Part shown: positions 1,982 to 33,485 of the stretch, piece after piece | Layout: every line of letters begins with the position of its first letter | Numbering within the stretch: the stretch's first letter is position 1 | Assembly: GCA_964016885.1 (NCBI GenBank) | Contig: OZ024757.1 | Coordinates: forward strand, 1,054,001-1,118,000 | DNA length: 64,000 bases | From: Eledone cirrhosa | Taxonomy: Eukaryota | Direction: 5' to 3' | Translations under genes and position numbers: made by a program | The notes under the pieces: model-generated | Databases searched by the model: none | The model's input: only the letters and a program-made list of their open reading frames with translations | Told to the model about the DNA's origin: nothing

Positions 1982-4348
1982 TAACATTTACATTACTCTA
2001 TATATACTATTGTATTTTCACAGGAAAGGCTTTACCTCACATAATATCTCACATAACATTTACATTGCTCTATATATACTATTGTATTTTCACAGTAAAG
2101 GCTTCACCTCACATAATATCTCACATAACATTTACACTACTCTATATATTCTATTGTATTTTCACAGTAAAGGCTTTACGTCACATAATATCTCACATAA
2201 CATTTACATTGCTCTATATATACTATTGTATTTTCACAGTAAAGGCTTTACCTCACATAACATTTACATTACTCTATATATACTATTGTATTTTCACTGT
2301 AAGGGGTTTACCTCACATAATATCTCACATAATATTTACATTACTCTATATATACTATTGTATTTTCACAGTAAAGGCTTTACCTCACATAATATCTCAC
2401 ATAACATTTACATTGCTCTATATATACTATTGTATTTTCACAGTAAAGGCTTTACCTCACATAACGTTTACATTACTCTATATATACTATTGTATTTTCA
2501 CAGTAAGGGCTTTACCTCACATAGTATCTCACATAACATTTACATTACTCTATATATACTATTGTATTTTCACAGTAAAGGCTTTACCTCACATATCTCA
2601 CATAACATTTACATTACTCTATATATACTATTGTATTTTCACAGTAAGGGCTTTACCTCACATAATATCTCACATAACATTTACATTACTCTATATATAC
2701 TATTGTATTTTCACAGGAAAGGCTTTACCTCACATAATATCTCACATAACATTTACATTGCTCTATATATACTATTGTATTTTCACAGTAAAGGCTTCAC
2801 CTCACATAATATCTCACATAACATTTACACTACTCTATATATTCTATTGTATTTTCACAGTAAAGGCTTTACCTCACATAATATCTCACATAACATTTAC
2901 ATTGCTCTATATATACTATTGTATTTTCACAGTAAAGGCTTTACCTCACATAACATTTACATTACTCTATATATACTATTGTATTTTCACTGTAAGGGGT
3001 TTACCTCACATAATATCTCACATAATATTTACATTACTCTATATATACTATTGTATTTTCACAGTAAAGGCTTTACCTCACATAATATCTCACATAACAT
3101 TTACATTGCTCTATATATACTATTGTATTTTCACAGTAAAGGCTTTACCTCACATAACGTTTACATTACTCTATATATACTATTGTATTTTCACAGTAAG
3201 GGCTTTACCTCACATAATATCTCACATAACATTTACATTACTCTATATATACTATTGTATTTTCACAGTAAAGGCTTTACCTCACATATCTCACATAACA
3301 TTTACATTACTCTATATATACTATTGTATTTTCACAGTAAGGGCTTTACCTCACATAATATCTCACATAACATTTACATTACTCTATATATACTATTGTA
3401 TTTTCACAGTAAAGGCTTTACTTCACATAATATCTCACATAACATTTACATTGCTCTATATATACTATTGTATTTTCACAGTAAAGGCTTTACCTCACAT
3501 AATATCTCACATAACATTTACATTGCTCTATATATACTATTGTATTTTCACAGTAAAGGCTTTACCTCACATAATATCTCAGATAACATTTACATTACTC
3601 TATATATACTATTGTATTTTCACAGTTAAGGTTTTACCTTATATAATATCTCATATAACATTTACATTACTCTATATATACTACTGTATTTTCACAGTAA
3701 AGGCTTTACCTCACATAATATCTCACATAACATTTACATTACTCTATATATATATACTATTGTATTTTCATAGTAAAGACTTTACCTCACATATTATCTC
3801 ACATAACATTAATATTACTCTATATATACGATAGTATTTTCACAGTAAAGGCTTTACCTCACATAACATTTACATTACTCTATATATACTATTGTATTTT
3901 CACAGTAAAGGCTTTACCCCACATAATATCTCACATAACATTTACATTACTCTATATATACTATAGTATGTTCACAGTAAAGGCTTTACCTCACATAATA
4001 TCTCACATAACATTTACATTACTCTATATATACTATAGTATGTTCACAGTAAAGGCTTTACCTCACATAATATCTCACATAACATTTACTTTACTCTATA
4101 TATACTATTGTATTTTCACAGTAAAGGCTTTACCCCACATATTATCTCACATAACATTTACATTACTCTATATATACTATTGTATTTTCACAGTAAATGC
4201 TTTACCCCACATAATATCTGACATAACATTTACATTACTCTATATATACTATTGTATTTTCACAGTAAAGGCTTTACCTCACATAATATCTCACATAACA
4301 TTTACATTACTCTATATATACAATTGTATTTTCACAGTAAAGGCTTTA
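1982..4348. repeat. 72-bp AT-rich satellite (60- and 69-bp variants), roughly 34 copies, 693-bp 10-mer higher-order repeat
   Basis: monomer cacataatatctcacataacatttacattactctatatatactattgtattttcacagtaaaggctttacct; diagnostic cagGaaagg variant at 2021 and 2714. Confidence 0.97.
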
Positions 4349-4975
4349 AAGATTTTGAGATTTTGATATTATTTATTTTGTGAACAATACGTTAACATCA
4401 CTATGAATGGCCAGTTTAAACAGAAAGAGGTGAGATAATTCTTGTCAGAGATTTATGGCTGGTTTAAATTCTTGGACATTGACCTCTTGACTATACAAAA
4501 ATATAAATGGGGAACTGAATCAAATGCTATGGTTAAATCTATCAGTTTACATCTCATGGTACATGCTGCTTGTTGATTTAAATATTTTTTTGGAAAAGTC
4601 CAGTTTTGGGTGTTTGCAGTCCCGCAGAATTGCTTTGTAGCCTTTTCATAATATGTAATGTTTGTAGTCCCATTTAGTTGAAGGAACTTGAATTTTAGCC
4701 ATAGTGTAGCTCTATCATATATAATGGTTGTCAGCAGAATTTAGTTGATAGAAACTTCTTAGTTTAGCCATAATGATTTTGTAATATTAACAAAATAATA
4801 AGTTATTTAAATATGTTTAATTAAGAGTGTAACGTTGTCCATTAAAGATATATTTGTCAGGAGAGGGACTATATTTATTTGAACTGTTGAAGGTAGAGAC
4901 ATGGTTGTGTGGTGACATGGACCATGAGATTGACTGAACCATGAAATATAACTGGTATAAAGTTAATGTGGTGTG

Positions 4976-5084: not shown

Positions 5085-5450
5085 ATGAGCAAATGGAGGC
5101 TCCACACGCTGGTGGCCCTGGCAGAAAGACTAGGAAAGGTGTTTCCCCAGAAGATGGCAAGGGAGACACGCTGGAAGAGACAACTCGCGAGGCTCACACC
5201 TGCGGGTAGCCAACTCTGTGCTGATGGTAGTGGGTAGGGAGGTGGTCCTAGGACACCAGAAATCTCCACTGCTTCGGGGTGCAGATGGTGGTGAGTAGGG
5301 AGGTGGAGGTCCTGGGGCCAAGGACACCAGGAATTTCCACTTGGTGGTCTTTCCATCCACAATAACTAGTGATGGTTTAGCAAGGCTGATAAACATGATC
5401 TTGGTTTTCCCAAGATGGCTGTTAAGGTCCACTGGTTAACTCACCGTGTG
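5085..5450 (-). mobile_element. degenerate chimeric non-LTR remnant, copy 1 (RTE-like RT piece plus CRE-like RLE C-terminus)
   Basis: minus-strand HLGKTKIMFISLAKP..IVDGKT followed by AVEISGVLG, ELATRRCEPRE and FQRVSLAIFWGN; homologous to 24878-25410. Confidence 0.7.
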
Positions 5451-5770
5451 GTAAACCATGGTGAGTGGGATGTCCAGCTTGTACAGTCACCAAACTATCC
5501 ACTAGATATCACTGAAATAAGAAACTACAAGTCAAAAAATGATATATATTTAAATGAATATAATTTCCGAATTAAAAAACAGTCCTAAGATCGAATCCCT
5601 CACCATCAACTGTACCACCAATACACTAATAATTTCATTGTAAAAATATCTTTACTCCCAACTAGTACCGAATTACTTCCCTTCCTTTCGTTTATATTTT
5701 TTTTAAACCCAAATTTCAAGAATAGTTGTAAATATCACTAATATATTTAATACAATTTCGGCCTTCGCAG

Positions 5771-8700
5771 TGATGTGTTGACTGTCTCAGACTACCAGTC
5801 TACCTGACTGGCTTGTGGACTGTCTCTCAGACTACCAGTCTACCTGGCTGGCTTGTGGACTGTCTCAGACTACCAGTCTACCTGGCTGGCTTGCGGACTG
5901 TCTCAGACTACCAGTCTACCTGGCTGGCTTGTGGACTGTCTCAGACTACCAGTCTACCTGGCTGGCTTGCGGACTGTCTCAGACTACCAGTCTACCTGGC
6001 TGGCTTGCGGACTGTCTCAGACTACCAGTCTACCTGACTGGCGTGGTGACTGTCTCTCAGACTACCAGTCTACCTGGCTGGCTTGTGGACTGTCTCAGAC
6101 TACCAGTCTACCTGGCTGGCTTGCGGACTGTCTCAGACTACCAGTCTACCTGGCTGGCTTGCGGACTGTCTCAGACTACCAGTCTACCTGACTGGCGTGG
6201 TGACTGTCTCTCAGACTACCAGTCTACCTGGCTGGCTTGTGGACTGTCTCAGACTACCAGTCTACCTGGCTGGCTTGCGGACTGTCTCAGACTACCAGTC
6301 TACCTGGCTGGCTTGTGGACTGTCTCAGACTACCAGTCTACTTGACTGGCGTGGTGACTGTCTCTCAGACTACCATTCTACCTGGCTGGCTTGTGGACTG
6401 TCTCAGACTACCAGTCTACCTGGCTGGCTTGTAGACTGTCTCAGACTACTAGTCTACCTGGCTGGCTTGTGGACTGTGTCTCAGACTACCAGTCTACCTA
6501 GCTGGCTTGTGGACTGTCTCAAACTACCAGTCTACCTGGCTGGCTTGTGGACTGTGTCTCAGACTACCAGTCTACCTGGCTGACTTGTGGACTGTCTCAG
6601 ACTACCAGTCTACTTGACTGGCGTGGTGACTGTCTCTCAGACTACCATTCTACCTGGCTGGCTTGTGGACTGTCTCAGACTACCAGTCTACCTGGCTGGC
6701 TTGTAGACTGTCTCAGACTACTAGTCTACCTGGCTGGCTTGTGGACTGTGTCTCAGACTACCAGTCTACCTGGCTGGCTTGTGGACTGTGTCTCAGACTA
6801 CCAGTCTACCTGGCTGACTTGTGGACTGTGTCTCAGACAACCAGTCTACCTGGCTGGCTTGTGGACTGTCTCAGACTACCAGTCTACCTGGCTGGCTTGT
6901 GGACTGTGTCTCAGACTACCAGTCTACCTGGCTGGCTTGTGGACTGTCTCAGACTACCAGTCTACCTGGCTGGCTTGTGGACTGTGTCTCAGACTACCAG
7001 TCTACCTGGCTGGCTTGTGGACTGTCTCAGACTACCAGTCTACCTGGCTGGCTTGTGGACTGTGTCTCAGACTACCAGTCTACCTGGCTGGCTTGTGGAC
7101 TGTCTCAGACTACCAGTCTACCTGGCTGACTTGTGGACTGTGTCTCAGACAACCAGTCTACCTGGCTGGCTTGTGGACTGTCTCAGACTACCAGTCTACC
7201 TGGCTGGCTTGTGGACTGTGTCTCAGACTACCAGTCTACCTGGCTGGCTTGTGGACTGTCTCAGACTACCAGTCTACCTGGCTGGCTTGTGGACTGTGTC
7301 TCAGACTACCAGTCTACCTGGCTGGCTTGTGGACTGTCTCAGACTACCAGTCTACCTGGCTGGCTTGTGGACTGTGTCTCAGACTACCAGTCTACCTGGC
7401 TGACTTGTGGACTGTCTCAGACTACCAGTCTACCTGGCTGGCTTGTGGAAGGTGTTTCACACTACCAGTCTACCTGGCTGACTTGTGGACTGTGTCTCAG
7501 ACAACCAGTCTACCTGGCTGGCTTGTGGACTGTGTCTCAGACTACCAGTCTACCTGGCTGGCTTGTGGAAGGTGTTTCACACTACCAGTCTACCTGGCTG
7601 GCTTGTGAACTGTGTCTCAGACTACCAGTCTACCTGGCTGGCTTGTGGACTGTCTCAAACTACCAGTCTACCTGGCTGGCTTGTGGACTGTCTCAGACTA
7701 CCAGTCTACCTGGCTGGCTTGTGTACTGTGTCTCACACTACCAGTCTACCTGGCTGACTTGTGGACTGTGTCTCAGACTACCAGTCTACCTGGCTGGCTT
7801 GTGGACTGTCTCAGACTACCAGTCTACCTGGCTGGCTTGTGGACTGTGTCTCAGACTAGCAGTCTACCTGGCTGGCTTGTGGACTGTCTCAGATTACCAG
7901 TCTACCTGGCTGGCTTGTGGACTGTCTCAGAGTACCAGTCTACCTGGTTGATGTGTGACTGTCAAGTCGGTCTGGAGTTCTTTTGTTTAGATATCAAGTG
8001 AGTTACCTCCATTTATAATATTATCTCCTTATTTATTATAGAAATGGCTGGCTTGTGGACTGTCTCAGACTACCAGTCTACCTGGCTGGCTTGTGGACTG
8101 TCTCAGACTACCAGTCTACCTGGCTGGCTTGTGGACTGTCTCAGACTACCATTCTACCTGGTTGGCTTGTGGACTGTGTCTCTACCAGTCTACCTGGCTG
8201 ACTTGTGGACTGTCTCAGACTACCAGTCTACCTGGCTGGCTTGTGGACTGTCTCAGACTACCAGTCTACCTGGCTGGCTTGTGGACTGTCTCAGACTACC
8301 AGTCTACCTGGCTGGCTTGTGGACTGTCTCAGACTACCAGTCTACCTGGCTGGCTTGTGGACTGTCTCAGACTACCAGTCTACCTGGCTGGCTTGTGGAC
8401 TGTCTCAGACTACCAGTCTACCTGGCTGACTTGTGAACTGTCTCACACTACCAGTCTACCTGGCTGGCTTGTGGAGTGTCTCAGACTACCATTCTACCTG
8501 GTTGGCTTGTGGACTGTGTCTCTACCAGTCTACCTGGCTGGCTTGTGGACTGTCTCAGACTACCAGTCTACCTGGCTGGCTTGTGGACTGTCTCAGACTA
8601 CCAGTCTACCTGGCTGGCTTGTGGACTGTCTCAGACTACCAGTCTACCTGGCTGGCTTGTGGACTGTCTCAGACTACCAGTCTACCTGGCTGGCTTGTGG

Positions 8701-11700
8701 ACTGTCTCAGACTACCAGTCTACCTGGCTGGCTTGTGGACTGTCTCAGACTACCAGTCTACCTGGCTGACTTGTGAACTGTCTCAGACTACCAGTCTACC
8801 TGGCTGGCTTGTGGACTGTCTCAGACTACCATTCTACCTGGTTGGCTTGTGGACTGTGTCTCTACCAGTCTACCTGGCTGGCTTGTGGACTGTCTCAGAC
8901 TACCAGTCTACCTGGCTGGCTTGTGGACTGTCTCAGACTACCAGTCTACCTGGCTGGCTTGTGGACTGTCTCAGACTACCAGTCTACCTGGCTGGCTTGT
9001 GGACTGTCTCAGACTACCAGTCTACCTGGCTGGCTTGTGGACTGTCTCAGACTACCAGTCTACCTGGCTGGCTTGTGGACTGTCTCAGACTACCAGTCTA
9101 CCTGGCTGACTTGTGAACTGTCTCACACTACCAGTCTACCTGGCTGGCTTGTGGAGTGTCTCACACTACCAGTCTACCTGGCTGGCTTGTGAAGTGTCTC
9201 AGACTACCAGTCTACCTGGCTGACTTGTGGACTGTGTCTCAGACTACCAGTCTACCTGGCTGGCTTGTGGACTGTGTCTCAGACTACCAGTCTACCTGGC
9301 TGGCTTGTGGACTGTGTCTCAGTCTAGCAGTCTACCTGGCTGGCTTGTGGACTGTCTCAGACTAGCAGTCTACCTGGCTGGCTTGTGGACTGTCTCAGAT
9401 TACCAGTCTACCTGGCTGGCTTGTGGACAGTCTCAGACTACCAGTCTACCTGGCTGGCTTGTGGACTGTGTCTCAGACTACCAGTCTACCTGGCTGTCTT
9501 GTGGACTGTCTCAGACTACCAGTCTACCTGGCTGGCTTGTGGACTGTCACACAATACCAGTCTACCTGGCTGGCTTGTGGACTGTCTCACACTACCAGTC
9601 TACCTGGCTGGCTTGTGGACTGTGTCTCTACCAGTCTACCTGGCTGACTTGTGGACTGTCTCAGACTACCAGTCTACCTGGCTGGCTTGTGTACCGTCTC
9701 CCACTACCAGTCTACCTGGCTGGCTTGTGGACTGTCTCAGACTACCAGTCTACCTGGCTGATATGTGGACTGTCTCAGACTACCAGTCTACCTGGCTGGC
9801 TTGTGGACTGTGTCTCACACTACCAGTCTACCTGGCTGGCTTGTGGACTGTCTCAGACTACCAGTCTACATGGCTGGCTTGTGGACTGTCTAAGACTACC
9901 AGTCTACCTGGCTGGCTTGTGGACTGACTCAGACTACCAGTCTACCTGGCTGGTTTGTGGACTGTCTCAGACTAGACTACCAGTCTACCTAGATGGCTTG
10001 TGGACTGTCTCAGACTACCAGTCTACCTGGCTGGCTTGTGGACTGTCTCACACTACCAGTCTACCTGGCTGGCTTGTGGACTGTGTCTCAGACTAGCAGT
10101 CTACCTGGCTGGCTTGTGGACTGTCTCAGATTACCAGTCTACCTGGCTGGCTTGTGGACTGTCTCAGACTACCAGTCTACCTGGCTGGCTTGTGGACTGT
10201 CTCTCAGACTAGCAGTCTACCTGGCTGGCTTGTGGACTGTCTCAGACTACCAGTCTACCTGGCTGGCTTGTGGACTGTCTCTCAGACTACCAGTCTACCT
10301 GGCTGGCTTGTGGACTGTGTCTCAGACTACCAGTCTACCTAGCTGGCTTGTGGACTGTCTCAAACTACCAGTCTACATGGCTGGCTTGTGGAGGGTGTCT
10401 CAGACTAGCAGCCTACCTGGCTGGCTTGTGGACTGTCTCAGACTACCAGTCTACCTGGCTGGCTTGTGGACTGTCTCAGATTACCAGTCTACCTGGCTGG
10501 CTTGTGGACTGTGTCTCTACGAGTCTACCTGGCTGGCTTGTGTACCGTCTCAGACTACCAGTCTACCTGGCTGGCTTGTGGACTGTCTCAGACTACCAGT
10601 CTACCTGGCTGGCTTGTGGACTGTCTCAGACTACCATTCTACCTGGTTGGCTTGTGGACTGTGTCTCTACCAGTCTACCTGGCTGACTTGTGGACTGTCT
10701 CAGACTACCAGTCTACCTGGCTGGCTTGTGGACTGTCTCAGACTACCAGTCTACCTGGCTGGCTTGTGGACTGTCTCAGACTACCAGTCTACCTGGCTGG
10801 CTTGTGGACTGTCTCAGACTACCAGTCTACCTGGCTGGCTTGTGGACTGTCTCAGACTACCAGTCTACCTGGCTGGCTTGTGGACTGTCTCAGACTACCA
10901 GTCTACCTGGCTGACTTGTGAACTGTCTCACACTACCAGTCTACCTGGCTGGCTTGTGGAGTGTCTCAGACTACCATTCTACCTGGTTGGCTTGTGGACT
11001 GTGTCTCTACCAGTCTACCTGGCTGGCTTGTGGACTGTCTCAGACTACCAGTCTACCTGGCTGGCTTGTGGACTGTCTCAGACTACCAGTCTACCTGGCT
11101 GGCTTGTGGACTGTCTCAGACTACCAGTCTACCTGGCTGGCTTGTGGACTGTCTCAGACTACCAGTCTACCTGGCTGGCTTGTGGACTGTCTCAGACTAC
11201 CAGTCTACCTGGCTGGCTTGTGGACTGTCTCAGACTACCAGTCTACCTGGCTGACTTGTGAACTGTCTCAGACTACCAGTCTACCTGGCTGGCTTGTGGA
11301 CTGTCTCAGACTACCATTCTACCTGGTTGGCTTGTGGACTGTGTCTCTACCAGTCTACCTGGCTGGCTTGTGGACTGTCTCAGACTACCAGTCTACCTGG
11401 CTGGCTTGTGGACTGTCTCAGACTACCAGTCTACCTGGCTGGCTTGTGGACTGTCTCAGACTACCAGTCTACCTGGCTGGCTTGTGGACTGTCTCAGACT
11501 ACCAGTCTACCTGGCTGGCTTGTGGACTGTCTCAGACTACCAGTCTACCTGGCTGGCTTGTGGACTGTCTCAGACTACCAGTCTACCTGGCTGACTTGTG
11601 AACTGTCTCACACTACCAGTCTACCTGGCTGGCTTGTGGAGTGTCTCACACTACCAGTCTACCTGGCTGGCTTGTGAAGTGTCTCAGACTACCAGTCTAC

Positions 11701-14700
11701 CTGGCTGACTTGTGGACTGTGTCTCAGACTACCAGTCTACCTGGCTGGCTTGTGGACTGTGTCTCAGACTACCAGTCTACCTGGCTGGCTTGTGGACTGT
11801 GTCTCAGTCTAGCAGTCTACCTGGCTGGCTTGTGGACTGTCTCAGACTAGCAGTCTACCTGGCTGGCTTGTGGACTGTCTCAGATTACCAGTCTACCTGG
11901 CTGGCTTGTGGACAGTCTCAGACTACCAGTCTACCTGGCTGGCTTGTGGACTGTGTCTCAGACTACCAGTCTACCTGGCTGTCTTGTGGACTGTCTCAGA
12001 CTACCAGTCTACCTGGCTGGCTTGTGGACTGTGTCTCTACCAGTCTACCTGGCTGACTTGTGGACTGTCTCAGACTACCAGTCTACCTGGCTGGCTTGTG
12101 TACCGTCTCCCACTACCAGTCTACCTGGCTGGCTTGTGGACTGTCTCAGACTACCAGTCTACCTGGCTGATATGTGGACTGTCTCAGACTACCAGTCTAC
12201 CTGGCTGGCTTGTGGACTGTGTCTCACACTACCAGTCTACCTGGCTGGCTTGTGGACTGTCTCAGACTACCAGTCTACATGGCTGGCTTGTGGACTGTCT
12301 AAGACTACCAGTCTACCTGGCTGGCTTGTGGACTGACTCAGACTACCAGTCTACCTGGCTGGTTTGTGGACTGTCTCAGACTAGACTACCAGTCTACCTA
12401 GATGGCTTGTGGACTGTCTCAGACTACCAGTCTACCTGGCTGGCTTGTGGACTGTCTCACACTACCAGTCTACCTGGCTGGCTTGTGGACTGTGTCTCAG
12501 ACTAGCAGTCTACCTGGCTGGCTTGTGGACTGTCTCAGATTACCAGTCTACCTGGCTGGCTTGTGGACTGTCTCAGACTACCAGTCTACCTGGCTGGCTT
12601 GTGGACTGTCTCTCAGACTAGCAGTCTACCTGGCTGGCTTGTGGACTGTCTCAGACTACCAGTCTACCTGGCTGGCTTGTGGACTGTCTCTCAGACTACC
12701 AGTCTACCTGGCTGGCTTGTGGACTGTGTCTCAGACTACCAGTCTACCTAGCTGGCTTGTGGACTGTCTCAAACTACCAGTCTACATGGCTGGCTTGTGG
12801 AGGGTGTCTCAGACTAGCAGCCTACCTGGCTGGCTTGTGGACTGTCTCAGACTACCAGTCTACCTGGCTGGCTTGTGGACTGTCTCAGATTACCAGTCTA
12901 CCTGGCTGGCTTGTGGACTGTGTCTCTACGAGTCTACCTGGCTGGCTTGTGTACCGTCTCAGACTACCAGTCTACCTGGCTGGCTTGTGGACTGTCTCAG
13001 ACTACCAGTCTACCTGGCTGGCTTGTGGACTGTCTCAGACTACCATTCTACCTGGTTGGCTTGTGGACTGTGTCTCTACCAGTCTACCTGGCTGACTTGT
13101 GGACTGTCTCAGACTACCAGTCTACCTGGCTGGCTTGTGGACTGTCTCAGACTACCAGTCTACCTGGCTGGCTTGTGGACTGTCTCAGACTACCAGTCTA
13201 CCTGGCTGGCTTGTGGACTGTCTCAGACTACCAGTCTACCTGGCTGGCTTGTGGACTGTCTCAGACTACCAGTCTACCTGGCTGGCTTGTGGACTGTCTC
13301 AGACTACCAGTCTACCTGGCTGACTTGTGAACTGTCTCACACTACCAGTCTACCTGGCTGGCTTGTGGAGTGTCTCAGACTACCATTCTACCTGGTTGGC
13401 TTGTGGACTGTGTCTCTACCAGTCTACCTGGCTGGCTTGTGGACTGTCTCAGACTACCAGTCTACCTGGCTGGCTTGTGGACTGTCTCAGACTACCAGTC
13501 TACCTGGCTGGCTTGTGGACTGTCTCAGACTACCAGTCTACCTGGCTGGCTTGTGGACTGTCTCAGACTACCAGTCTACCTGGCTGGCTTGTGGACTGTC
13601 TCAGACTACCAGTCTACCTGGCTGGCTTGTGGACTGTCTCAGACTACCAGTCTACCTGGCTGACTTGTGAACTGTCTCAGACTACCAGTCTACCTGGCTG
13701 GCTTGTGGACTGTCTCAGACTACCATTCTACCTGGTTGGCTTGTGGACTGTGTCTCTACCAGTCTACCTGGCTGGCTTGTGGACTGTCTCAGACTACCAG
13801 TCTACCTGGCTGGCTTGTGGACTGTCTCAGACTACCAGTCTACCTGGCTGGCTTGTGGACTGTCTCAGACTACCAGTCTACCTGGCTGGCTTGTGGACTG
13901 TCTCAGACTACCAGTCTACCTGGCTGGCTTGTGGACTGTCTCAGACTACCAGTCTACCTGGCTGGCTTGTGGACTGTCTCAGACTACCAGTCTACCTGGC
14001 TGACTTGTGAACTGTCTCACACTACCAGTCTACCTGGCTGGCTTGTGGAGTGTCTCACACTACCAGTCTACCTGGCTGGCTTGTGAAGTGTCTCAGACTA
14101 CCAGTCTACCTGGCTGACTTGTGGACTGTGTCTCAGACTACCAGTCTACCTGGCTGGCTTGTGGACTGTGTCTCAGACTACCAGTCTACCTGGCTGGCTT
14201 GTGGACTGTGTCTCAGTCTAGCAGTCTACCTGGCTGGCTTGTGGACTGTCTCAGACTAGCAGTCTACCTGGCTGGCTTGTGGACTGTCTCAGATTACCAG
14301 TCTACCTGGCTGGCTTGTGGACAGTCTCAGACTACCAGTCTACCTGGCTGGCTTGTGGACTGTGTCTCAGACTACCAGTCTACCTGGCTGTCTTGTGGAC
14401 TGTCTCAGACTACCAGTCTACCTGGCTGGCTTGTGGACTGTCACACACTACCAGTCTACCTGGCTGGCTTGTGGACTGTCTCACACTACCAGTCTACCTG
14501 GCTGGCTTGTGGACTGTGTCTCTACCAGTCTACCTGGCTGACTTGTGGACTGTCTCAGACTACCAGTCTACCTGGCTGGCTTGTGTACCGTCTCCCACTA
14601 CCAGTCTACCTGGCTGGCTTGTGGACTGTCTCAGACTACCAGTCTACCTGGCTGATATGTGGACTGTCTCAGACTACCAGTCTACCTGGCTGGCTTGTGG

Positions 14701-17700
14701 ACTGTGTCTCACACTACCAGTCTACCTGGCTGGCTTGTGGACTGTCTCAGACTACCAGTCTACATGGCTGGCTTGTGGACTGTCTAAGACTACCAGTCTA
14801 CCTGGCTGGCTTGTGGACTGACTCAGACTACCAGTCTACCTGGCTGGTTTGTGGACTGTCTCAGACTAGACTACCAGTCTACCTAGATGGCTTGTGGACT
14901 GTCTCAGACTACCAGTCTACCTGGCTGGCTTGTGGACTGTCTCACACTACCAGTCTACCTGGCTGGCTTGTGGACTGTGTCTCAGACTAGCAGTCTACCT
15001 GGCTGGCTTGTGGACTGTCTCAGATTACCAGTCTACCTGGCTGGCTTGTGGACTGTCTCAGACTACCAGTCTACCTGGCTGGCTTGTGGACTGTCTCTCA
15101 GACTAGCAGTCTACCTGGCTGGCTTGTGGACTGTCTCAGACTACCAGTCTACCTGGCTGGCTTGTGGACTGTCTCTCAGACTACCAGTCTACCTGGCTGG
15201 CTTGTGGACTGTGTCTCAGACTACCAGTCTACCTAGCTGGCTTGTGGACTGTCTCAAACTACCAGTCTACATGGCTGGCTTGTGGAGGGTGTCTCAGACT
15301 AGCAGCCTACCTGGCTGGCTTGTGGACTGTCTCAGACTACCAGTCTACCTGGCTGGCTTGTGGACTGTCTCAGATTACCAGTCTACCTGGCTGGCTTGTG
15401 GACTGTGTCTCTACGAGTCTACCTGGCTGGCTTGTGTACCGTCTCAGACTACCAGTCTACCTGGCTGGCCTGTGGACTGTCTCAGACTACCAGTCTACCT
15501 GGTTGGCCTGTGGACTGTGTCTCAGACTACCAGTCTACCTGGCTGTCTTGTGGACTGTCTCACACTACCAGTCTACCTGGCTGGCTTGTGGACTGTCTCA
15601 CACTACCAGTCTACCTGGCTGGCTTGTGGACTGTGTCTCTACCAGTCTAGCTGGCTGACTTGTGGACTGTCTCAGACTACCAGTCTACCTGGCTGGCTTG
15701 TGTACCGTGTCACACTACCAGTCTACCTGGCTGGCTTGTGGACTGTCTCAGACTATCAGTCTACCTGGCTGGCTTGTGGACTGTCTCAGACTACCAGTCT
15801 ACCTGGCTGATATGTGGACTGTCTCAGACTACCAGTCTACCTGGCTGGCTTGTGGACTGTGTGTCACACTACCAGTCTACCTGGCTGGCTTGTGGACTGT
15901 CTAAGACTACCAGTCTACCTGGCTGGCTTGTGGACTGACTCAGACTACCAGTCTACCTGGCTGGTTTGTGGACTGTCTCAGACTACCAGTCTACCTAGAT
16001 GGCTTGTGGACTGTCTCAGACTACCAGTCTACCTGGCTGGCTTGTGGACTGTCTCACACTACCAGTCTACCTGGCTGGCTTGTGGACTGTCTCTCAGACT
16101 AGCAGTCTATCTGGCTGGCTTGTGGACTGTCTCAGATTACCAGTCTACCTGGCTGGCTTGTGGACTGTGTCTCAGACTACCAGTCTACCTGGCTGGCTTG
16201 TGGAGGGTGTCTCAGACTACCAGTCTACCTAGCTGGCTTGTGGACTGTCTCAAACTACCAGTCTACATGGCTGGCTTGTGGAGGGTGTCTCAGACTAGCA
16301 GCCTACCTGGCTGGCTTGTGGACTGTCTCAGAGTAGCAGTCTACCTGGCTGGCTTGTGGACTGTCTCAGATTACCAGTCTACCTGGCTGGCTTGTGGACT
16401 GTCTCACACTACCAGTCTACCTGGCTGGCTTGTGGACTGTGTCTCTACGAGTCTACCTGGCTGGCTTGTGTACCGTCTCACACTACCAGTCTACCTGGCT
16501 GGCCTGTGGACTGTCTCAGACTACCAGTCTACCTGGTTGGCTTGTGGACTGTGTCTCAGACTACCAGTCTACCTGGCTGTCTTGTGGACTGTCTCAGACT
16601 ACCAGTCTACCTGGCTGGCTTGTGGACTGTGTCTCAGACTACCAGTCTACCTGGCTGTCTTGTGGACTGTCTCACACTACCAGTCTACCTGGCTGTCTTG
16701 TGGACTGTCTCACACTACCAGTCTACCTGGCTGGCTTGTGGACTGTCTCACACTACCAGTCTACCTGGCTGGCTTGTGGACTGTGTCTCTACCAGTCTAC
16801 CTGGCTGACTTGTGGACTGTCTCAGACTACCAGTCTACCTGGCTGGCTTGTGTACCGTGTCACACTACCAGTCTACCTGGCTGGCTTGTGGACTGTCTAA
16901 GACTACCAGTCTACCTGGCTGGCTTGTGGACTGACTCAGACTACCAGTCTACCTGGCTGGTTTGTGGACTGTCTCAGACTACCAGTCTACCTAGATGGCT
17001 TGTGGACTGTCTCAGACTACCAGTCTACATGGCTGGCTTGTGTACCGTGTCACACTACCAGTCTACCTGGCTGGCTTGTGGACTGTCTAAGACTACCAGT
17101 CTACCTGGCTGGCTTGTGGACTGACTCAGACTACCAGTCTACCTGGCTGGTTTGTGGACTGTCTCAGACTACCAGTCTACCTAGATGGCTTGTGGACTGT
17201 CTCAGACTACCAGTCTACATGGCTGGCTTGTGGACTTTGTCTCAGACTAGCAGTCTACCTGGCTGGCTTGTGGACTGTCTCTGACTACCAGTCTACCTGG
17301 CTGGCTTGTGGACTGTCTCAGACTACCAGTCTACCTGGTTGATGTGTGACTGTCTCAGACTACCAGTCTACCTGGTTGATGTGTGACTGTCAAGCCGGTC
17401 TGGTGTTCTTTTGTATAGATATCAAGTGAGTTACCTCCATTTATAATATTTTCTCCTTATTTATTATAGAAATCGCTGGCTTGCAGACTGTCTCAGACTA
17501 CCAGTCTACCTGTCGTGCTTGTGGACTGTCTCAGACTACCAGTCTACCTGTCTGGCTTGTGGACTGTCTCAGACTACCAGTCTACCTGGCTGGCTTGTGG
17601 ACTGTGTCTCTACCAGTCTACCTGGCTGACTTGTGGACTGTCTCAGACTACCAGTCTACCTGGCTGGCTTGTGGACTATGTCTCAGACTACCAGTCTACC

Positions 17701-20700
17701 TGGCTGGCTTGTGGACTGTCTCAGACTATCAGTCTACCTGGCTGGCTTGTGGACTGTCTCAGACTACCAGTCTACCTGGCTGGCTTGTGGACTGTCTCAG
17801 ACTATCAGTCTACCTGGCTGGCTTGTGGACTGTCTCAGACTACCAGTCTACCTGGCTGATACGTGGACTGTCTCAGACTACCAGTCTACCTGGCTGGCTG
17901 GCTTGTGGACTGTGTCTCACACTACCAGTCTACCTGGCTGGCTTGTGGACTGTCTCAGACTAGCAGTCTACCTGGCTGGCTTGTGGACTGTCTCAGACTA
18001 CCAGTCTACCTGGCTGGCTTGTGGGCTCTGTCTCAGACTACCAGTCTACCTGGCTGGCTTGTGGACTGTGTCTCAGACTACCAGTCTACCTGGCTGGCTT
18101 GTGGACTGTGTCTCTACCAGTCTACCTGGCTGACGTGTGGACTGTCTCAGACTACCAGTCTACCTGGCTGGCTTGTGGACTGTGTCTCTACCAGTCTACC
18201 TGGCTGACTTGTGGACTGTCTCACACTAGCAGTCTACCTGGCTGGCTCGTGGACTGTCTCAGACTACCAATCAAACTGTCTGGCTTGTGGACTGTCTCAC
18301 ACAACCAGTCTACTTGGCTGGCTTGTGGACTGTCTCACACTACCAGTCTACCTGGCTGGCTTGTGGACTGTCTCTCAGACTAGCAGTCTACCTGGCTGGC
18401 TTGTGGACTGTCTCTCAGACTAGCAGTCTACCTGGCTGACTTGTGGACTGTGTCGGACTACCAGTCTACCTGGTTGACGTGTGACTGTCAAGCTGGTCTG
18501 GAGTTCTTTTGTATAGATATCAAGTGAGTTACCTCCATTTATAATATTATCTCCTTATTTATTATAGAAATGGCTGGCTTGTGGACTGTCTCAGACTACC
18601 AGTCTACCTGGCTGGCTTGTGGACTGTCTCAGACTACGAGTCTACCTGGCTGGCTTTTGGACTGTTTCAGACTACCAGTCTACCTGGCTGGCTTGTGGGC
18701 TCTGTCTCAGACTACCAGTCTACCTGGCTGACTTGTGGACTGTGTCTCTACCAGTCTACCTGGCTGAGTTGTGGACTGTCTCAGACTACCAGTCTACCTG
18801 GCTGAGTTGTGGACTGTCTCAAACTACCAGTCTACCTGGCTGGCTTGTGGACTGTCTCAGACTACCAGTCGACCTGGCTGGCTTCTGGACTATGTCTCAG
18901 ACTACCAGTCTACCTGGCTGGCTTGTGGACTGTGTCTCTACCAGTCTACCTGGCTGGCTCGTGGACTGTCTCAGACTACCAGTCGACCTGGCTGGCTTCT
19001 GGACTATGTCTCAGACTACCAGTCTACCTGGCTGGCTTGTGGACTGTGTCTCACACTACCAGTCTACCCGGCTGGCTTGTGGACTGTCTCAGACTAGCAG
19101 TCTACCTGGCTGATATGTGGACTGTTTCAGACTACCAGTCTACCCGGCTGGCTTGTGGACTGTCTCAGACTACCAGTCTACCTGGCTGATATGTGGACTG
19201 TCTCAGACTACCAGTCTACCTGGCTGGCTTGTGGACTGTGTCTCACACTACCAGTCTACCTGGCTGGCCTGTGGACTGTCTCAGACTAGCAGTCTACCTG
19301 GCTGGCTTGTGGACTGTCTAAAACTACCAGTCTACCTGGCTGGCTTGTGGACTGTCTCAGACTACCAGTCTACCTGGCTGGTTTGTGGAGTGTCTCAGAC
19401 TACCAGTCTACCTGGCTGGCTTGTGGACTGTCTCAGACTACCAATCAAACTGTCTGGCTTTTGGACTGTCTCACACAACCAGTCTACCTGGCTGGCTTGT
19501 GGACTGTCTCACACTACCAGTCTACCTGGCTGGCTTGTGGGCTATCTCAGATTACCAGTCTACCTGGTTGATGTGTGACTGTCAAGCCGGTCTGGAGTTC
19601 TTTTGTATAGATATCAAGTGAGTTTCCTCCATTTATAATATTATCTCCTTATTTATTATAGAAATGGCTGGCTTGTGGACTGTCTCATACTACCAGTCTA
19701 CCTGGCTGGCTTGTGGACTGTCTCAGACTACCAGTCTACCTGGCTGGCTTGTGGACTGTTTCAGACTACCAGTCTACCTGGCTGGCTTGTGGACTGTCTC
19801 AGACCACCAGTCTACCTGGCTGGCTTGTGGACTGTCTCAGACTACCAGTCTACCTGGCTGGCTTGTGGACTCTCTAAGACTTCCAGTCTACCTGGATGGC
19901 TTGTGGACTGTCTCACACTACCAGTCTACCTGGCTGGCTTGTGGACTGTCTCAGACTACCAGTCTACCTGGCTGGCTTGTGGACTGTGTCTCTACCAGTC
20001 TACCTGGCTGGCTTGTGGACTGTCTCAGACTACCAGTCTACCTGGCTGGCTTGTGGACTGTGTCTCTACCAGTCTACCTGGCTGGCTTGTGGACTGTCTC
20101 AGACTACCAGTCTACCTGGCTGGCTTGTGGACTGTGTCTCTACCAGTCTACCTGGCTGACTTCTGGACTGTCTCAGACTACCAGTCTACCTGGCTGGCTT
20201 GTGGACTGTCTCACACTACCAGTCTACCTAGCTGATATGTGGACTGTCTCAGACTACCAGTCTACCTGGCTGGCTTGTGGACTGTGTCTCACACTACCAG
20301 TCTACCTGGCTGGCTTGTGGACTGTCTCAGACTAGCAGTCTACCTGGCTGGCTTGTGGACTGTCTAAGACTACCAGTCTACCTGGCTGGCTTGTGGACTG
20401 TCTCAGACTACCAGTCTACCTGGCTGGCTTGTGGACTGTCTCAGATTACCAGTCTACCTGGCTGACTTGTGGACTGTGTCGGACTACCAGTCTACCTGGT
20501 TGATGTGTGACTGTCAAGCCGGTCTGGAGTTCTTTTGTATAGATATCAAGTGAGTTACCTCCCTTTATAATATTTTCTCCTTATTTATTATAGAAATGGC
20601 TGGCTTGTGGACTGTCTCAGACTAGCAGTCTACCTGGCTGGCTTGTGGACTGTCTCAGACTAGCAGTCTACCTGGCTGGCTTGTGGACTGTCTAAGACTA

Positions 20701-21929
20701 CCAGTCTACCTGGCTGGCTTGTGGACTGTCTCACACTACCAGTCTACCTGGCTGGCTTGTGGACTGTCTCTCAGACTAGCAGTCTACCTGGCTGGTTTGT
20801 GGACTGTCTCAGATTACCAGTCTACCTGGCTGACTTGTGGACTGTGTCGGACTACCAGTCTACCTGGTTGATGTGTGACTGTCAAGCCGGTCTGGAGTTC
20901 TTTTGTATAGATATCAAGTGAGTTACCTCCCTTTATAATATTTTCTCCTTATTTATTATAGAAATGGCTGGCTTGTGGACTGTGTCTCAGACTACCAGTC
21001 TACCTGGCTGGCTTGTGGACTGTCTCAGACTACCAGTCTACCTGGCTGGCTTGTGGACTGTCTCAGACTACCATTCTACCTGGCTGGCTTGTGGACTGTG
21101 TCTCTACCAGTCTACCTGGCTGGCTTGTGGACTGTTTCAGACTACCAGTCTACCTGGCTGGCTTGTGGACTGTCTCAGACCACCAGTCTACCTGGCTGGC
21201 TTGTGGACTGTCTCAGACTACCAGTCTACCTGGCTGGCTTGTGGACTGTGTCACACTACCAGTCTACCTGGCTGGCTTGTGGACTGTCTCAGACTACCAG
21301 TCTACCTGGCTGACTTGTGGACTGTGTCGGACTACCAGTCTACCTGGCTGGCTTGTGGACTATCTCAAACTACCAGTCTACCTGGCTGATATGTGGACTG
21401 TCTCAGACTACCAGTCTACCTGGCTGGCTTGTGGACTGTGTCTCAGACTACCATTCTACCTGGCTGGCTTGTGGACTGTGTCTCTACCAGTCTACCTGGC
21501 TGGCTTGTGGACTGTCTCAGACCACCAGTCTACCTGGCTGGCTTGTGGACTGTCTCAGACTACCAGTCTACCTGGCTGGCTTGTGGACTGTGTCTCTACC
21601 AGTCTACCTTGCTGGCTTGTGGACTGTCTCAGACTACCAGTCTACCTGGCTGGCTTGTGGACTGTCTCAGACTATCACTCTACCTGGCTGGCTTGTGGAC
21701 TATCTCAAACTACCAGTCTACCTGGCTGATATGTGGACTGTCTCAGACTACCAGTCTACCTGGCTGGCTTGTGGACTGTGTCTCACACTACCAGTCTACC
21801 TGGCTGGCTTGTGGACTGTCTCAGACTACCAGTCTACCTGGCTGACTTGTGGACTGTGTCGGACTACCAGTCTACCTGGTTGATGTGTGACTGTCAAGCC
21901 GGTCTGGTGTTCTTTTGTATAGATATCAA
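5771..21929 (+). pseudogene. putative 87-nt exon (DVLTVSDYQSTWLMCDCQAGLEFFCIDI) interrupted by the 38-bp satellite expansion
   Basis: acceptor ttcggccttcgcag ending 5770, donor aa/gtgagt at 21930; collapsing the array to one unit gives an open phase 2-2 segment; the terminal copy reads GLVFF, most internal copies GLEFF. Confidence 0.45.
5779..21895. repeat. 38-bp satellite (36- and 40-bp variants), roughly 400 copies, with 340-bp and about 2.4-2.5-kb higher-order repeats and six internal copies of the right flank
   Basis: monomer gactgtctcagactaccagtctacctggctggcttgtg; identical ORF strings at 8433/10918/13327 and at 9993/12402, with a matching start at 14887. Confidence 0.98.
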
Positions 21930-22747
21930 GTGAGTTACCTCCCTTTATAATATTATTTCCTTATTTATTATAGAAATATACTTCTTGTTTAAAAAGAAAT
22001 TATATTTTTTTCTTCTTTCCCTTGCTGAAAGGTATTTAGCGCATAGATTTTAGGAGATAAATTTGATTTTTTAGAGACAATATCTTTAAATAGACGAATT
22101 AAAAGCCATTTATGAGGCTAAAAGCCCATCCCTTTGTTGCTCCAAATAACTGAACATATATTTATATATATATATATGTATAAACATTTTTATATTAAAA
22201 GACTTGTAAATATTTTCACAATCAAAACACTCTCTCGGAGGTTACGACAAACAACACAACTTATAACTGAGAAGGTTGGATATCTGTAAGAAAAATAATA
22301 TTAAAAAATATGAAAGTCATTTACAGACATTGTCAATAAATAGAAAATGTTAAACTTTATAAAATTCTTCCAATTTTTCTTCTTTTTTCTTTTGTACATA
22401 CACACTAACACGTGTAGATGTATACATGCATCTATATATACCTGTGTAATTAGATGTATAGATATGTATACAGCTAACTACACATTGACGATCCAGATCG
22501 ATCATCGAACTGCATTGATATTAGTGGTGGAACGTATTCATGATTTTTTAAGGTTACCTATGGAGGAAAATATAATTTTTATCAGGTATCTATGTTTGAA
22601 ATTTTTGTTAAATTTTAATATGATACTGTAATGAAACGTGTTCTTACATTCTATACAGATTATCTCCTGTTAAAGTTGATATGTTCTGTTATACATTTAT
22701 ATCATTAGATATACATATGTTTATATCTACGTATATATGTCTGACTG

Positions 22748-24877: not shown

Positions 24878-25410
24878 AAGCAAATGGAGGCCTATGCGCC
24901 AGCCACCCCTCGGTTCAGGCGGAGACAATACAGAAGGCGTTTCCTCAGAGGATGGTGAGGGAGACGCATTGGAAGAGCCATTCCAACTCGCAAGGCTCAC
25001 ACCTGGGGGTAGCCAACTCCTGGTGAGTAGGGAAGGGATCCTAGGGCCAAGGACACCTGAAGCCGATTATGGTCCTAGGGCCAGGGATACCAGAAGTCTC
25101 CACTGCTATGGGGTGCCAATGGTGGTAAGTAGGGAGGTGCTCCAAGGGCCAAGGACACCAGAAGTCTCCACTACTATGGGGTCCTGATGATGGTGAGTAG
25201 GGAGGTGGTCCTAGGACCACGGACACCAGGAATCTCCATTAATGGTCTTTCCATCCACAATAACTGCTGGTGGTTTAGCAAGGCTGATAAACATGATCTT
25301 GGTTTTCCCAAGATGGATGTTAAAGTCCATTGGTTGGCTCACAGTGTGGATAGCATTGAGCATCTCCTCCAATTCCTGTGGTGGTGTATTAGGATCATGT
25401 CATATATCAC
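24878..25410 (-). mobile_element. degenerate chimeric non-LTR remnant, copy 2 (RTE-like RT piece plus CRE-like RLE C-terminus with internal tandem repeats)
   Basis: minus strand PQELEEMLNAIHTVSQPMDFNIHLGKTKIMF..VIVDGKTI, then repeated PIAVETSG.(L/P)GP and ELEWLFQCVSLTIL*GNAF. Confidence 0.75.
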
Positions 25411-25875: not shown

Positions 25876-26094
25876 ATCCGTTCTCATAAACCCACGGAAG
25901 TTGGGTTTTTCCCCATATAACAATATTTAAATACTTCCAGTGTCTCTCCTCTGAGGGCTGCTATTTCTAGCATTTCTACAGCAGAAAAGGTTCTTATTTC
26001 AGAGTGGTTTAGCTACTAATTTTAGCCTTTTATCAGATAATAGATTGTGTGATTTAATTGTCCTTTGACTGCTATTTCTAGCTAGTTGGGAGTT

Positions 26095-26358
26095 TCTTGT
26101 ACTGGCTGTCTGGTTGAACGTTTCTGTACTGGCTGCCTGATTGAACGTTTCTTGTACTGGCTCTGTTTGAACGTTTCGTGTACTGGCTGCCTGATTGAAC
26201 GTTTTGTGTACTGGCTGTCTCGTTGAACGTTTCGTGTCCTGGCTGTTTAGTTGAACGTTTCTTGTACTGGCTGTCTCGTTGAACGTTTCGTGTACTGGCT
26301 GTCTCGTTGAACGTTTCTTTTACTGGCTGTCTCGTTGAACGTTTCGTGTACTGGCTGG
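26095..26358. repeat. 28-bp minisatellite, about 9 copies
   Basis: gtactggctgtctcgttgaacgtttcgt; gaacg at 26281 and 26309. Confidence 0.95.
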
Positions 26359-29127: not shown

Positions 29128-29850
29128 CTATCTTAATATTAAGTTTAAGTTTATCTATCTAAGCTTACAAATTTAGAAGGGCCCTAGAAAAACTTAAACT
29201 TAATATTAAGATAGTAGAAAGACCAGGTACCTCCATAAAAACACTTATTAGCAATACATACCCTTTTCAAAGACCTCTCTGTATAGATAAGAAATGCATA
29301 ATCTGTAAACTAAGCCCCCATATTAACTGTAAAACTAGAAATGTAGTATATAGCATAAGATGTACTGAAGGACAATGTAAAGATAAGAATATAGTGTACA
29401 TAGGAGAGACAGCTCCTAGAATAGGGGAACGGATAAATGAACACTGGCAAGACCTTCAAGATAGTAAAGAATCAACTGTACTCTACCAGCATGTTAAAAT
29501 AGAACATAAGGGCAAATTAGAGAACATAGAAATAAAAATAGAATCTACACCCAGAAAAGACGCAATGTTTAGACAAATCACAGAGGCAATAAACATAAAT
29601 GTAACACATGCGCAAACTAAGCACACAACACACGCAAAAACAAGATGGCATAGGACAGAACAAAGGCGAGGCACAAAACAAAGAAAAGAATCCCAAGTCA
29701 CTGAAGAGGTCACAGAATGTGTGATGAAATGAACAACCGTCAGGTTGTGGAACCAACCAACCAACCGGAAATTTATAAATTCTTAAATTTATAAATTTAA
29801 TTTATAATAAATTGAAGTGAAAGCAACTGGTGCGTGTGTTTCTTATTGGC
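29126..29850 (+). mobile_element. 5'-truncated Penelope-like element: GIY-YIG endonuclease region and 3' pLTR, with fold-back 5' end
   Basis: open frame 29163-29732: IKIVERPG..CIDKKCIIC..CKTRNVVYSIRC..C..VYIGETAPRIGERINEH..LYQH..RQITEA; 28-bp inverted repeat 29126-29153/29190-29217. Confidence 0.88.
29691..29750 (+). ncRNA. degenerate minimal hammerhead ribozyme motif in the Penelope-like pLTR
   Basis: CTGAAGA-g-gtcaca..tgtgat-GAAA-tg..cg-TC; stem I pairs poorly. Confidence 0.45.
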
Positions 29851-32235: not shown

Positions 32236-32464
32236 AAAGTGAAGTGGTTATGTATAGATGGACCGATAACATCTGATTGAGACCTGGTGGATATTAATTT
32301 AAAACCTGTTAAAGTCCTCTTCCTCTCCAGGTCTAAAAACAGTTGATTTCTTCCATGGAAGGAGAGAGATTTATTTGTATAGGAATAATTTTTGTCGTGA
32401 CACCTACACGACCTCATTTATATAAATAATATAAGATCAAAAGATGGTTAAAAGAGTTCCAAGT

Positions 32465-32533
32465 ATTTTATTATGCGGATTTCAAAAACAAATATCATCA
32501 TGAGATGATATCTGCGTTTTCATCAGATAAAAT
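32465..32533 (-). ncRNA. minimal type I hammerhead ribozyme, mirror copy (stem III tccgca)
   Basis: reverse complement of 32618-32686 with two substitutions. Confidence 0.72.
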
Positions 32534-32617
32534 AGGGATACATGATATGTATCAACATATGTTGATTTAAAACTTCACTATTCACAAGTGTTTTTAAGCT
32601 TCATATCATGTATCCCT

Positions 32618-32686
32618 ATTTTATCTGATGAAAACGCAGATATCATCACATGATGATATTTGTTTTTGAAATGCGCATAATAAAAT
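32618..32686 (+). ncRNA. minimal type I hammerhead ribozyme
   Basis: attttat CTGATGA aaacgcagatatcatc-acat-gatgatatttgttttt GAAA tgcgca TA ataaaat: perfect 7-bp stem I, long stem II, palindromic stem III. Confidence 0.85.
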
Positions 32687-32808
32687 ACTTGGAACTCTTT
32701 TAACCATCTTTTGATCTTATATTATGTATACTCCAGTCCTACAAACTGTAGAGTGCTTCTTATCCGATATCTGCATTGCTTTATTGTACTACAATAAAAC
32801 TCACCTCC

Positions 32809-33261: not shown

Positions 33262-33324
33262 ATTTCATTATACATATTTCAAGGACACCAAGTCAAATTA
33301 TGGTGTGCTTTCATCAGATAAAAT
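33262..33324 (-). ncRNA. minimal type I hammerhead ribozyme, mirror copy
   Basis: reverse complement of 33486-33548. Confidence 0.75.
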
Positions 33325-33485
33325 ATAATATAGATCAGTTTTATAAATAAATATTGACATACCCTTAAAGAATGCGACCATTTCTGTTGGAAGCTCCCGG
33401 ATAGACTATCCGGGAGCTTCCAACAGAAATGGTCGCATTCTTTAAGGGTATGTCAATATTTATTTATAAAACTGATCTATATTAT

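What the first reader, a model, noticed from the sequence alone, without database searches (positions are those of the whole stretch)
5730..21980. 16-kb satellite apparently expanded inside an 87-nt exon, seeded by a 15-bp microhomology
Seen: the array starts right after cactaat...ttcggccttcgcag and ends just before aa/gtgagt. Collapsing it gives t-gat-gtg-ttg-act-gtc-tca-gac-tac-cag-tct-acc-tgg-ttg-atg-tgt-gac-tgt-caa-gcc-ggt-ctg-gag-ttc-ttt-tgt-ata-gat-atc-aa, an open phase 2-2 segment. Within it tgatgtgttgactgtc and tgatgtgtgactgtc start exactly 38 nt apart, which explains the period, and a hybrid unit survives at about 17340-17395. Inference: a coding exon was inflated about 185-fold. The host gene is dead, skips this symmetric exon in frame, or is a duplicate. 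I do not recognise the peptide.
Basis: partly seen in the sequence, partly recalled or inferred. Interest (0 to 1): 0.78.

Follow-up and report, generated by a model that had tools for sequence, protein, structure and literature searches.

The report
Satellite bloats a likely octopod exon
About 420 copies of a 38-base repeat fill 16,000 bases between the two ends of what is likely a small exon of an unidentified, probably octopus, gene and likely disable it; repeats that grow at exon edges are known from lancelets and birds, but those leave the exon intact.

Summary
The array is real: period 38, about 423 copies, 5776-21879, between a branch-point/acceptor (exon start 5771) and a GTGAGT donor after 21929. 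The first donor is therefore at 7997, a 26-fold rather than 185-fold inflation. The first unit carries an in-frame TGA. Short-read contigs of one sample hold the internal copies. Exon status is inferred only: splice-like ends (about 0.2% chance per array), AT-rich flanks, and a second exon-like segment upstream whose acceptor is itself repeated 31 times. Coding status is unsupported: no homologue in six searches, and an open frame arises in 52% of shuffles. The unit lacks AGGT on this strand, so seamless intron gain is unlikely. Best reading: a minisatellite born inside an exon by slippage between short direct repeats, later copying the donor end, leaving the exon skipped or dead. It works like avian exon stuttering and lancelet mirages but breaks the exon. 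The scan noted boundary-spanning arrays at four other loci of this genome. Splicing was not tested. New variant of a known kind; modest interest.

The parts
1982..4348 (+). 72-bp (and 60-bp variant) array whose unit spans the acceptor of the upstream exon-like segment; 31 of 34 units keep TTCACAG
4338..4429 (+). Upstream exon-like segment, 92 nt, stops in all three frames; ATG at 4403 ends in phase 0 and ATG at 4407 in phase 2 at the donor GAG|GTGAGA; inferred UTR or start exon
5738..5770 (+). Branch-like CTAAT and acceptor AG; single copy; AT-rich flank (27% GC over 100 nt)
5771..5807 (+). Head of the putative exon, first unit; carries the 16-nt repeat word and an in-frame TGA at 5805-5807
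5776..21879 (+). 38-bp minisatellite, 422.8 copies; of 402 parsed units 282 are 38 nt, 78 are 40 nt, 29 are 36 nt; consensus open in all three + frames; AGGT 2 times on +, 392 times on -
7948..8045 (+). First internal copy of 3' tail (to 7997), GTGAGT donor and 48 nt flank; 56 units lie before it
8045..15518 (+). Higher-order block of 2.4-2.5 kb, three copies, 99.5-99.9% identical
17340..17376 (+). 37-nt hybrid unit with the tail-type linker; with the tail behind it an 86-nt near-copy of the collapsed segment, without acceptor
17376..17473 (+). Internal tail, donor and flank copy 2 (donor after 17425; Val variant)
18474..18571 (+). Internal copy 3 (donor after 18523)
19568..19665 (+). Internal copy 4 (donor after 19617)
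20500..20597 (+). Internal copy 5 (donor after 20549)
20868..20965 (+). Internal copy 6 (donor after 20917)
21880..21929 (+). Terminal 50-nt tail of the putative exon, carrying the 15-nt repeat word; Val variant
21930..21977 (+). Terminal donor GTGAGT and the 48 nt of flank that were copied into the array; acceptor-like AG at +44; 23% GC over the next 100 nt

Best explanation
A 38-base minisatellite fills the space between the two ends of a segment that is likely a small exon, where it likely arose by slippage between two short direct repeats, and it likely leaves that exon skipped or dead. Shown: the array, the splice-like ends, the repeat word at both ends, six internal copies of the tail with donor and 48 nt of flank that share one breakpoint, a triplicated 2.4-kb block, and stops in all three frames before the first donor. 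Inferred order: (1) the 38 nt between the two repeat words duplicated; (2) the array grew and its linker changed while the edge units kept the old form; (3) one event copied the tail, donor and flank back into the array, and unequal exchange spread that block; (4) recent kilobase duplications lengthened it. Inferred outcome: a transcript using the 5771 acceptor would meet its first donor at 7997 and carry 2.2 kb of repeat with a stop at codon 12, so it would be degraded or give no useful protein; skipping the whole segment would keep the frame if it was a symmetric coding exon. Whether the exon was coding or untranslated is open (about even).
For: Splice-like ends on both sides, about 0.2% chance per array. 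GC 40-46% inside against 27% and 23% in the 100-nt flanks. A second exon-like segment 1.3 kb upstream on the same strand, whose acceptor is repeated in 31 of 34 units of another array and whose ATG at 4407 is phase-compatible. Repeat word at both ends, reached by 4 of 3,000 shuffles; this is the signature of two minisatellite-birth models as described in PMC3389668 (passages). Linker forms between edge type and bulk type exist in 8 and 34 of 387 parsed linkers. All six internal copies end at the same flank base and go on in a unit linker, five of the bulk type, which favours array first. Contigs of runs X1-X3 show the same junction, and X1 record 4 has the mismatch and gap pattern that only the hybrid unit gives. 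Stops in all frames to 7997: 10, 12 and 5. Changes among tail copies: 4 amino-acid changing, 1 silent, no sign of constraint, on few events.
Against: No homologue of the peptide: 2 hits in 1.84 billion representatives, both sums over unrelated repeats; no candidate in two word-index searches; atlas scores at most 0.82. No host gene or further coding exon recognised in the window. An open frame is expected in 52% of shuffles. The acceptor scores only 2.1 on my matrix, and such sites occur once per 209 strand-bases. A genome scan over many arrays will pick some chance cases. The four differences between exon-type and bulk unit cluster in 9 positions (P = 0.002), which simple point drift from the slipped unit does not explain. 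No outgroup shows the ancestral state.
Confidence: 0.45

Rival explanations
1. Not an exon. The array grew from anonymous non-genic DNA, as others in this window did, and its splice-like ends are chance.
For: Six arrays fill 74% of the window, and two appear to come from mobile-element pieces (family labels recalled). No homologue. Open frame is weak evidence. Weak acceptor score.
Against: Joint chance about 0.2% per array, and the neighbouring array also ends in an exon-like segment on the same strand. GC drops at both splice-like boundaries.
Confidence: 0.25
2. Mirage first. A harmless intronic array of the exon's 3' part, donor and flank arose first; the 38-bp unit evolved inside it; unequal exchange over the shared 28-nt core then pushed the array into the source exon.
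For: The internal blocks are donor mirages in form. The bulk linker shares CTTGT in register with the flank just behind the breakpoint, and its differences cluster, so the linker may be a junction product. Earlier scan notes report donor and acceptor mirages in this genome (unchecked).
Against: No two tail blocks lie head to tail; the closest donors are 368 nt apart. The repeat word at both ends explains the period without a mirage.
Confidence: 0.15
3. The gene is alive and removes the array as a new intron, using cryptic sites near the two ends.
For: 60 in-frame, stop-free routes exist on paper, for example a 4-nt head joined to a 59-nt tail. Tandem duplication is a demonstrated route to intron gain (PMC3443670, passages).
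Against: The unit has no AGGT on the + strand (2 occurrences in 16 kb), and the best donor before the stop scores -3.7 against 5.0 for the tail donor. On the - strand AGGT stands 392 times, but all three - frames of the one collapse tested had stops and the best - acceptor nearby scores 3.0.
Confidence: 0.07
4. The segment is an old transposon fragment that carries its own splice-like signals.
For: Transposons seed many tandem repeats (PMC3389668, passages). Other arrays here appear to be mobile-element derived.
Against: No other copy of head or tail outside the array. No Pfam or Rfam match above cut-off. Contigs laid on the tail differ from it by 0-3 letters. No look-alike in the scan's notes, a weak search.
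Confidence: 0.05
5. The architecture or most of the length is an assembly artefact.
For: Three near-identical 2.4-kb blocks, 99.5-99.9%, could be mis-assembled.
Against: Short-read contigs show the internal junction in 3 of 3 runs and a hybrid-type contig in 1 of 3. Unit contigs are 14-18 times deeper than tail contigs in X2 and X3 against 121 versus 3-6 word copies in the window: same order, though depth is no copy number. The runs are one sample, possibly the source of the assembly.
Confidence: 0.03

Closest known systems
Avian sequence stuttering, exon stuttering (Hron et al. 2026, PMC12954441; abstract, passages and whole Discussion read)
   Same: Repeats of local origin inflate gene regions, and lateral exon parts with their splice site are copied many times, as the six donor-end copies are here.
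   Different: The paper states that exon stuttering does not alter the exon itself; here the bulk unit lies inside the putative exon and breaks it. It was described in GC-rich bird dot chromosomes with annotated genes and population length variation; none of these is shown here.
Amphioxus 'mirage' minisatellites in Adh3, globins, troponin C, PGBD5 (PMC3087553 passages; PMC3902484 one passage)
   Same: Tandem copies of an exon-intron boundary with decoy splice signals; edge units escape homogenisation. The 72-bp array at 1982-4348 and the internal donor blocks have this form.
   Different: Mirages leave the authentic exon and normal splicing intact; the globin case has 3-6 units. The 38-bp unit here spans no boundary and numbers about 420.
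Minisatellite birth between short direct repeats (Haber and Louis 1998; Taylor and Breden 2000; not read, known from passages of PMC3389668)
   Same: A unit flanked by a short direct repeat and an incomplete terminal unit.
   Different: The repeat here is 15-16 nt and imperfect, against 5-10 bp in the model as described, and the bulk unit has a changed linker.
Human F7 intron 7 37-bp VNTR (PMC1557585; abstract only)
   Same: Several identical donors in a row; the paper reports that the most upstream one is chosen, which would select 7997 here.
   Different: The F7 exon is intact; the result is from mammalian cells and untested in molluscs.
Intron gain by tandem genomic duplication (PMC3443670; passages)
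   Same: Tandem duplication of exonic sequence.
   Different: Precise gain needs AGGT in the duplicated piece; absent from the unit on the + strand.

Membership tests
Avian-type exon stuttering | Repeat cluster of local origin | tested here: met
   Head and tail occur only at this array in the window, and 32 of 36 positions of the unit equal the head; whole genome not available.
Avian-type exon stuttering | Lateral exon part with its splice site copied several times | tested here: met
   Six internal copies of tail, donor and 48 nt flank; exon status itself is inferred.
Avian-type exon stuttering | Source exon itself unaltered | tested here: not met
   2,227 nt from acceptor to first donor, stops in all three frames.
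Avian-type exon stuttering | Source is an annotated coding exon | tested here: inconclusive
   No homologue found; short query.
Avian-type exon stuttering | Large length variation between individuals | not testable with these tools
   One sample, contigs only.
Amphioxus mirage | Tandem unit spans an exon-intron boundary | tested here: not met
   The 38-bp unit is interior; only the six dispersed blocks span the donor. The separate 72-bp array does span an acceptor-like site.
Amphioxus mirage | Normal splicing of the host mRNA persists | not testable with these tools
   No splicing data could be examined.
Precise intron gain by tandem duplication | AGGT in the duplicated exonic piece on the transcribed strand | tested here: not met
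   2 AGGT in 16 kb on +; best early donor scores -3.7.
Minisatellite born between short direct repeats | Direct repeat at both ends, one period apart, with an incomplete terminal unit | tested here: met
   Words at 5771 and 21881; 4 of 3,000 shuffles reach the score.
Minisatellite born between short direct repeats | The repeat pre-dates the array (single-unit ancestor in an outgroup) | not testable with these tools
   No animal genomes are searchable here; no genome held for the window.

The most novel reading that the evidence does not exclude
A live protein-coding gene had an 87-nt exon torn apart by a 16-kb satellite and survives, either by skipping the symmetric exon in frame or by splicing the array out through cryptic sites without a proto-splice site. 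That would be exon loss or intron gain by stuttering caught in the act, and a direct link between local repeat growth and gene erosion.
Probability: 0.18. Interest if true: 0.62.

Novelty: new variant of a known kind. Interest (0 to 1): 0.3.

Why it matters
Hron et al. (PMC12954441, Discussion read) say that the link between sequence stuttering and gene loss rests mainly on co-localisation. A case where the repeat invades and disables an exon would be a concrete step between the two, in an animal far from birds. It would also mean that repeat masking hides broken exons in such genomes. Until the host gene and its splicing are known it is one more locally born minisatellite in a window that is 74% tandem repeat.

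Tried and rejected
Whole genome: none held, so paralogues and further exons could not be sought. Peptide searches with natural in-frame stretches of single tail copies: solved structures, best E 1.3; ESM Atlas, best 0.82 with low recognition; 1.84 billion representatives, 2 hits, a repeat-derived frame and an abalone ankyrin-repeat protein, both rejected as sums over repeats; word index, longer and near lengths, no candidate; Pfam, nothing for P0001 and one sub-threshold Kazal_3 match (E 0.04, 14.1 of 26.2 bits) among 11 queries, rejected. The collapsed peptide and the upstream-exon join were not searched as such, so a homologue that only the joined form would reach stays open. Rfam: 0 matches at gathering in the whole window, 2 sub-threshold matches at 17250-17550. 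Sequencing runs: no RNA holder listed; no evidence either way. In the laid runs there was no cover beyond 21979, no loose end showing an intact short allele, and no contig with the Val letter at 21908; contigs show presence only, so none of this counts as evidence. Exon scan of non-array DNA gave 2 candidates on + and 7 on -, none convincing. Folding: no notable structure in four stretches, z from +1.44 to -1.81. Minus-strand gene: considered because each unit has AGGT there; not favoured. A 7-nt micro-exon at 21923-21929 and acceptors 44 nt behind each donor were considered; the six exons they would define all hold stops. Scan notes near this place, in relatives, by DNA, by peptide and by words: nothing. 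Paper searches that showed no title on a cephalopod or exon-interior case (listings only); the library lacks most subscription journals. Supplements were not read; the gene list of PMC12954441 (Fig. S5) may hold exon-interior cases.
Full report
OBSERVATION. Tandem Repeats Finder reports one array at 5776-21879, period 38, 422.8 copies, 87% matches. My parse found 403 anchors and 402 units of 109 kinds; 282 are 38 nt, 78 are 40 nt and 29 are 36 nt. The array begins behind a CTAAT motif and an AG at 5769-5770, and 50 unique-looking bases follow it before AA|GTGAGT at 21929/21930. Joining head and last unit in a script gives an open 87-nt phase 2-2 frame at 28 of 29 joining points; the 29th fails because the first unit has TGA at 5805-5807.

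The 50-nt tail, the donor and 48 nt of downstream flank stand seven times, with donors after 7997, 17425, 18523, 19617, 20549, 20917 and 21929. The six internal copies end at the same flank base and go on in a unit linker. Copies differ by 1.6 of 50 and 1.7 of 48 letters on average. From the acceptor, the first donor is 2,227 nt away (25.6 times 87), after 56 units, with 10, 12 and 5 stops in the three frames. A 2.4-2.5-kb block is present three times at 8045-15518, 99.5-99.9% identical.

IS IT IN RAW DATA? Three runs of one sample hold 23-29% of the sampled words of 17300-22730. Their kind is not on record and they may be the source of the assembly, so they are not independent support. Laid on 21800-22135, all three give contigs that leave the flank at 21977 and continue in unit sequence, which is the internal junction. 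X1 record 4 (63 nt, 5 other letters, 1 gap) has the pattern given by window 17325-17387, the only 63-nt stretch sharing both ends, so the hybrid unit is likely real too. Unit contigs have depth 929 and 429 in X2 and X3, tail contigs 51 and 32; the window holds the corresponding words 121 and 3-6 times. The order of size agrees, which fits a repeat confined to about one locus, but the tool warns that depth is no copy number.

IS IT AN EXON? For: with my own crude matrices, donors as strong as this one occur once per 2,696 strand-bases of non-repeat window DNA and acceptors as strong once per 209 (once per 2,247 with a branch motif), giving about 0.2% (0.02%) for both ends of one array. GC is 46% in the head and 40% in the tail against 27% and 23% in the 100-nt flanks. 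A second exon-like segment lies at 4338-4429 on the same strand; its acceptor is the repeated unit of the 72-bp array, intact in 31 of 34 units, and its ATG at 4407 ends in phase 2, matching the proposed frame. That match is weak, since the segment has two ATGs in two different phases. Against: a scan over many arrays selects chance cases, and the acceptor is modest. I put exon status at about 70%.

IS IT CODING? An open + frame appears in 52% of 20,000 shuffles. Natural in-frame stretches of single tail copies, holding 25 of the 28 proposed residues, found no homologue: solved structures, atlas, 1.84 billion representatives with 2 spurious repeat hits, two word-index searches, Pfam. The queries are short, so a fast-evolving lineage-specific gene is not excluded. 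No further coding exon was recognised in the window. Among tail copies four changes alter a residue and one is silent. Coding and untranslated are about equally likely. The host gene is unidentified. The octopod label comes from earlier scan notes and from my recall of the interspersed repeats; I did not test it.

HOW IT LIKELY AROSE. The repeat word one period apart is reached by 4 of 3,000 shuffles and 21 of 545 real 87-mers. A flanking direct repeat and an incomplete last unit are the marks of two minisatellite-birth models as summarised in PMC3389668 (passages). The bulk unit equals the head at 32 of 36 positions, and the four differences sit in the first nine (P = 0.002). Linkers closer to the edge type survive in 8 and 34 of 387 parsed linkers. 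So the edges likely keep the old form, but the linker probably changed in one complex event, not by even drift. The shared breakpoint of the internal tail copies points to one duplication, later spread by unequal exchange; five letters in register behind the breakpoint match between flank and unit and may have guided it. The reverse order, mirage first and invasion later, is not excluded. No outgroup shows the ancestral state: a 49-50-nt ancestor with a 22-nt insertion and target duplication would look the same.

WHAT IT LIKELY DOES TO SPLICING. Precise intron gain by tandem duplication needs AGGT (PMC3443670, passages); the + strand of the array has 2 in 16 kb. Sixty in-frame rescue routes exist on paper, but the best donor before the stop scores -3.7. 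In human F7 the most upstream of identical donors is used (PMC1557585, abstract); if that holds here, inclusion ends at 7997 with a stop at codon 12. Skipping or a dead gene is therefore more likely than rescue. This is inference; no splicing data were examined.

COMPARISON. It works like avian exon stuttering (PMC12954441; abstract, passages, Discussion) and lancelet mirages (PMC3087553, PMC3902484; passages): local repeat growth that copies splice boundaries. It is not a member of either as defined, because the source exon is not left intact and the main unit spans no boundary. Earlier scan notes describe boundary-spanning arrays in ECM29, a fasciclin, NEDD4 and REXO5 of this genome; I took the paper leads from them and did not check their claims. 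Five paper searches listed no title on a cephalopod or exon-interior case (listings only, open-licence library).

VERDICT. Observation partly confirmed and structurally richer than reported; interpretation partly supported. New variant of a known kind. Interest 0.30; 0.62 if a live coding gene is shown to cope with the split exon (probability 0.18).

Noticed in passing
window 1982-4348 and 4338-4429: A 72-bp array repeats an acceptor-like intron end plus the first 10 nt of an exon-like segment; 31 of 34 units keep the AG. It has the form of an acceptor mirage, 1.3 kb upstream of the finding.
   Followed up: partly
window 37789-64000, with 35290-35345: A 48-bp array of at least 26 kb (533.8 copies, running off the window) whose unit resembles a stretch of an interspersed repeat copy at about 35290-35345; the SINE label is recalled.
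   Followed up: no
window 35738-37630: A 44-bp array runs into a frame (37529-37810) that resembles a LINE reverse-transcriptase region by recall; Pfam gave no hit.
   Followed up: partly
window 29163-29732: 189-aa open frame with a GIY-YIG match (E 0.00014, 22.5 bits against a cut-off of 22.6); likely a Penelope-like element remnant, label recalled.
   Followed up: partly
window 5090-5460 and 24880-25350: Two copies of an unidentified dispersed repeat rich in GTGAGTAG donor-like sites; the second has a 68-bp internal tandem duplication.
   Followed up: no
window 26092-26357: A 28-bp array, 9.6 copies. By eye its ends could collapse to a short phase 2-2 segment, but the donor is weak and the left side looks like a common repeat.
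   Followed up: no
window 32430-32721 and 33279-33531: Two local duplications: an inverted pair of about 140 nt around 32575, and near-identical 57-aa frames on opposite strands at 33279-33531, an inverted repeat.
   Followed up: no
whole window: Six tandem arrays cover 47,063 of 64,000 bases (74%), each with a different unit.
   Followed up: partly
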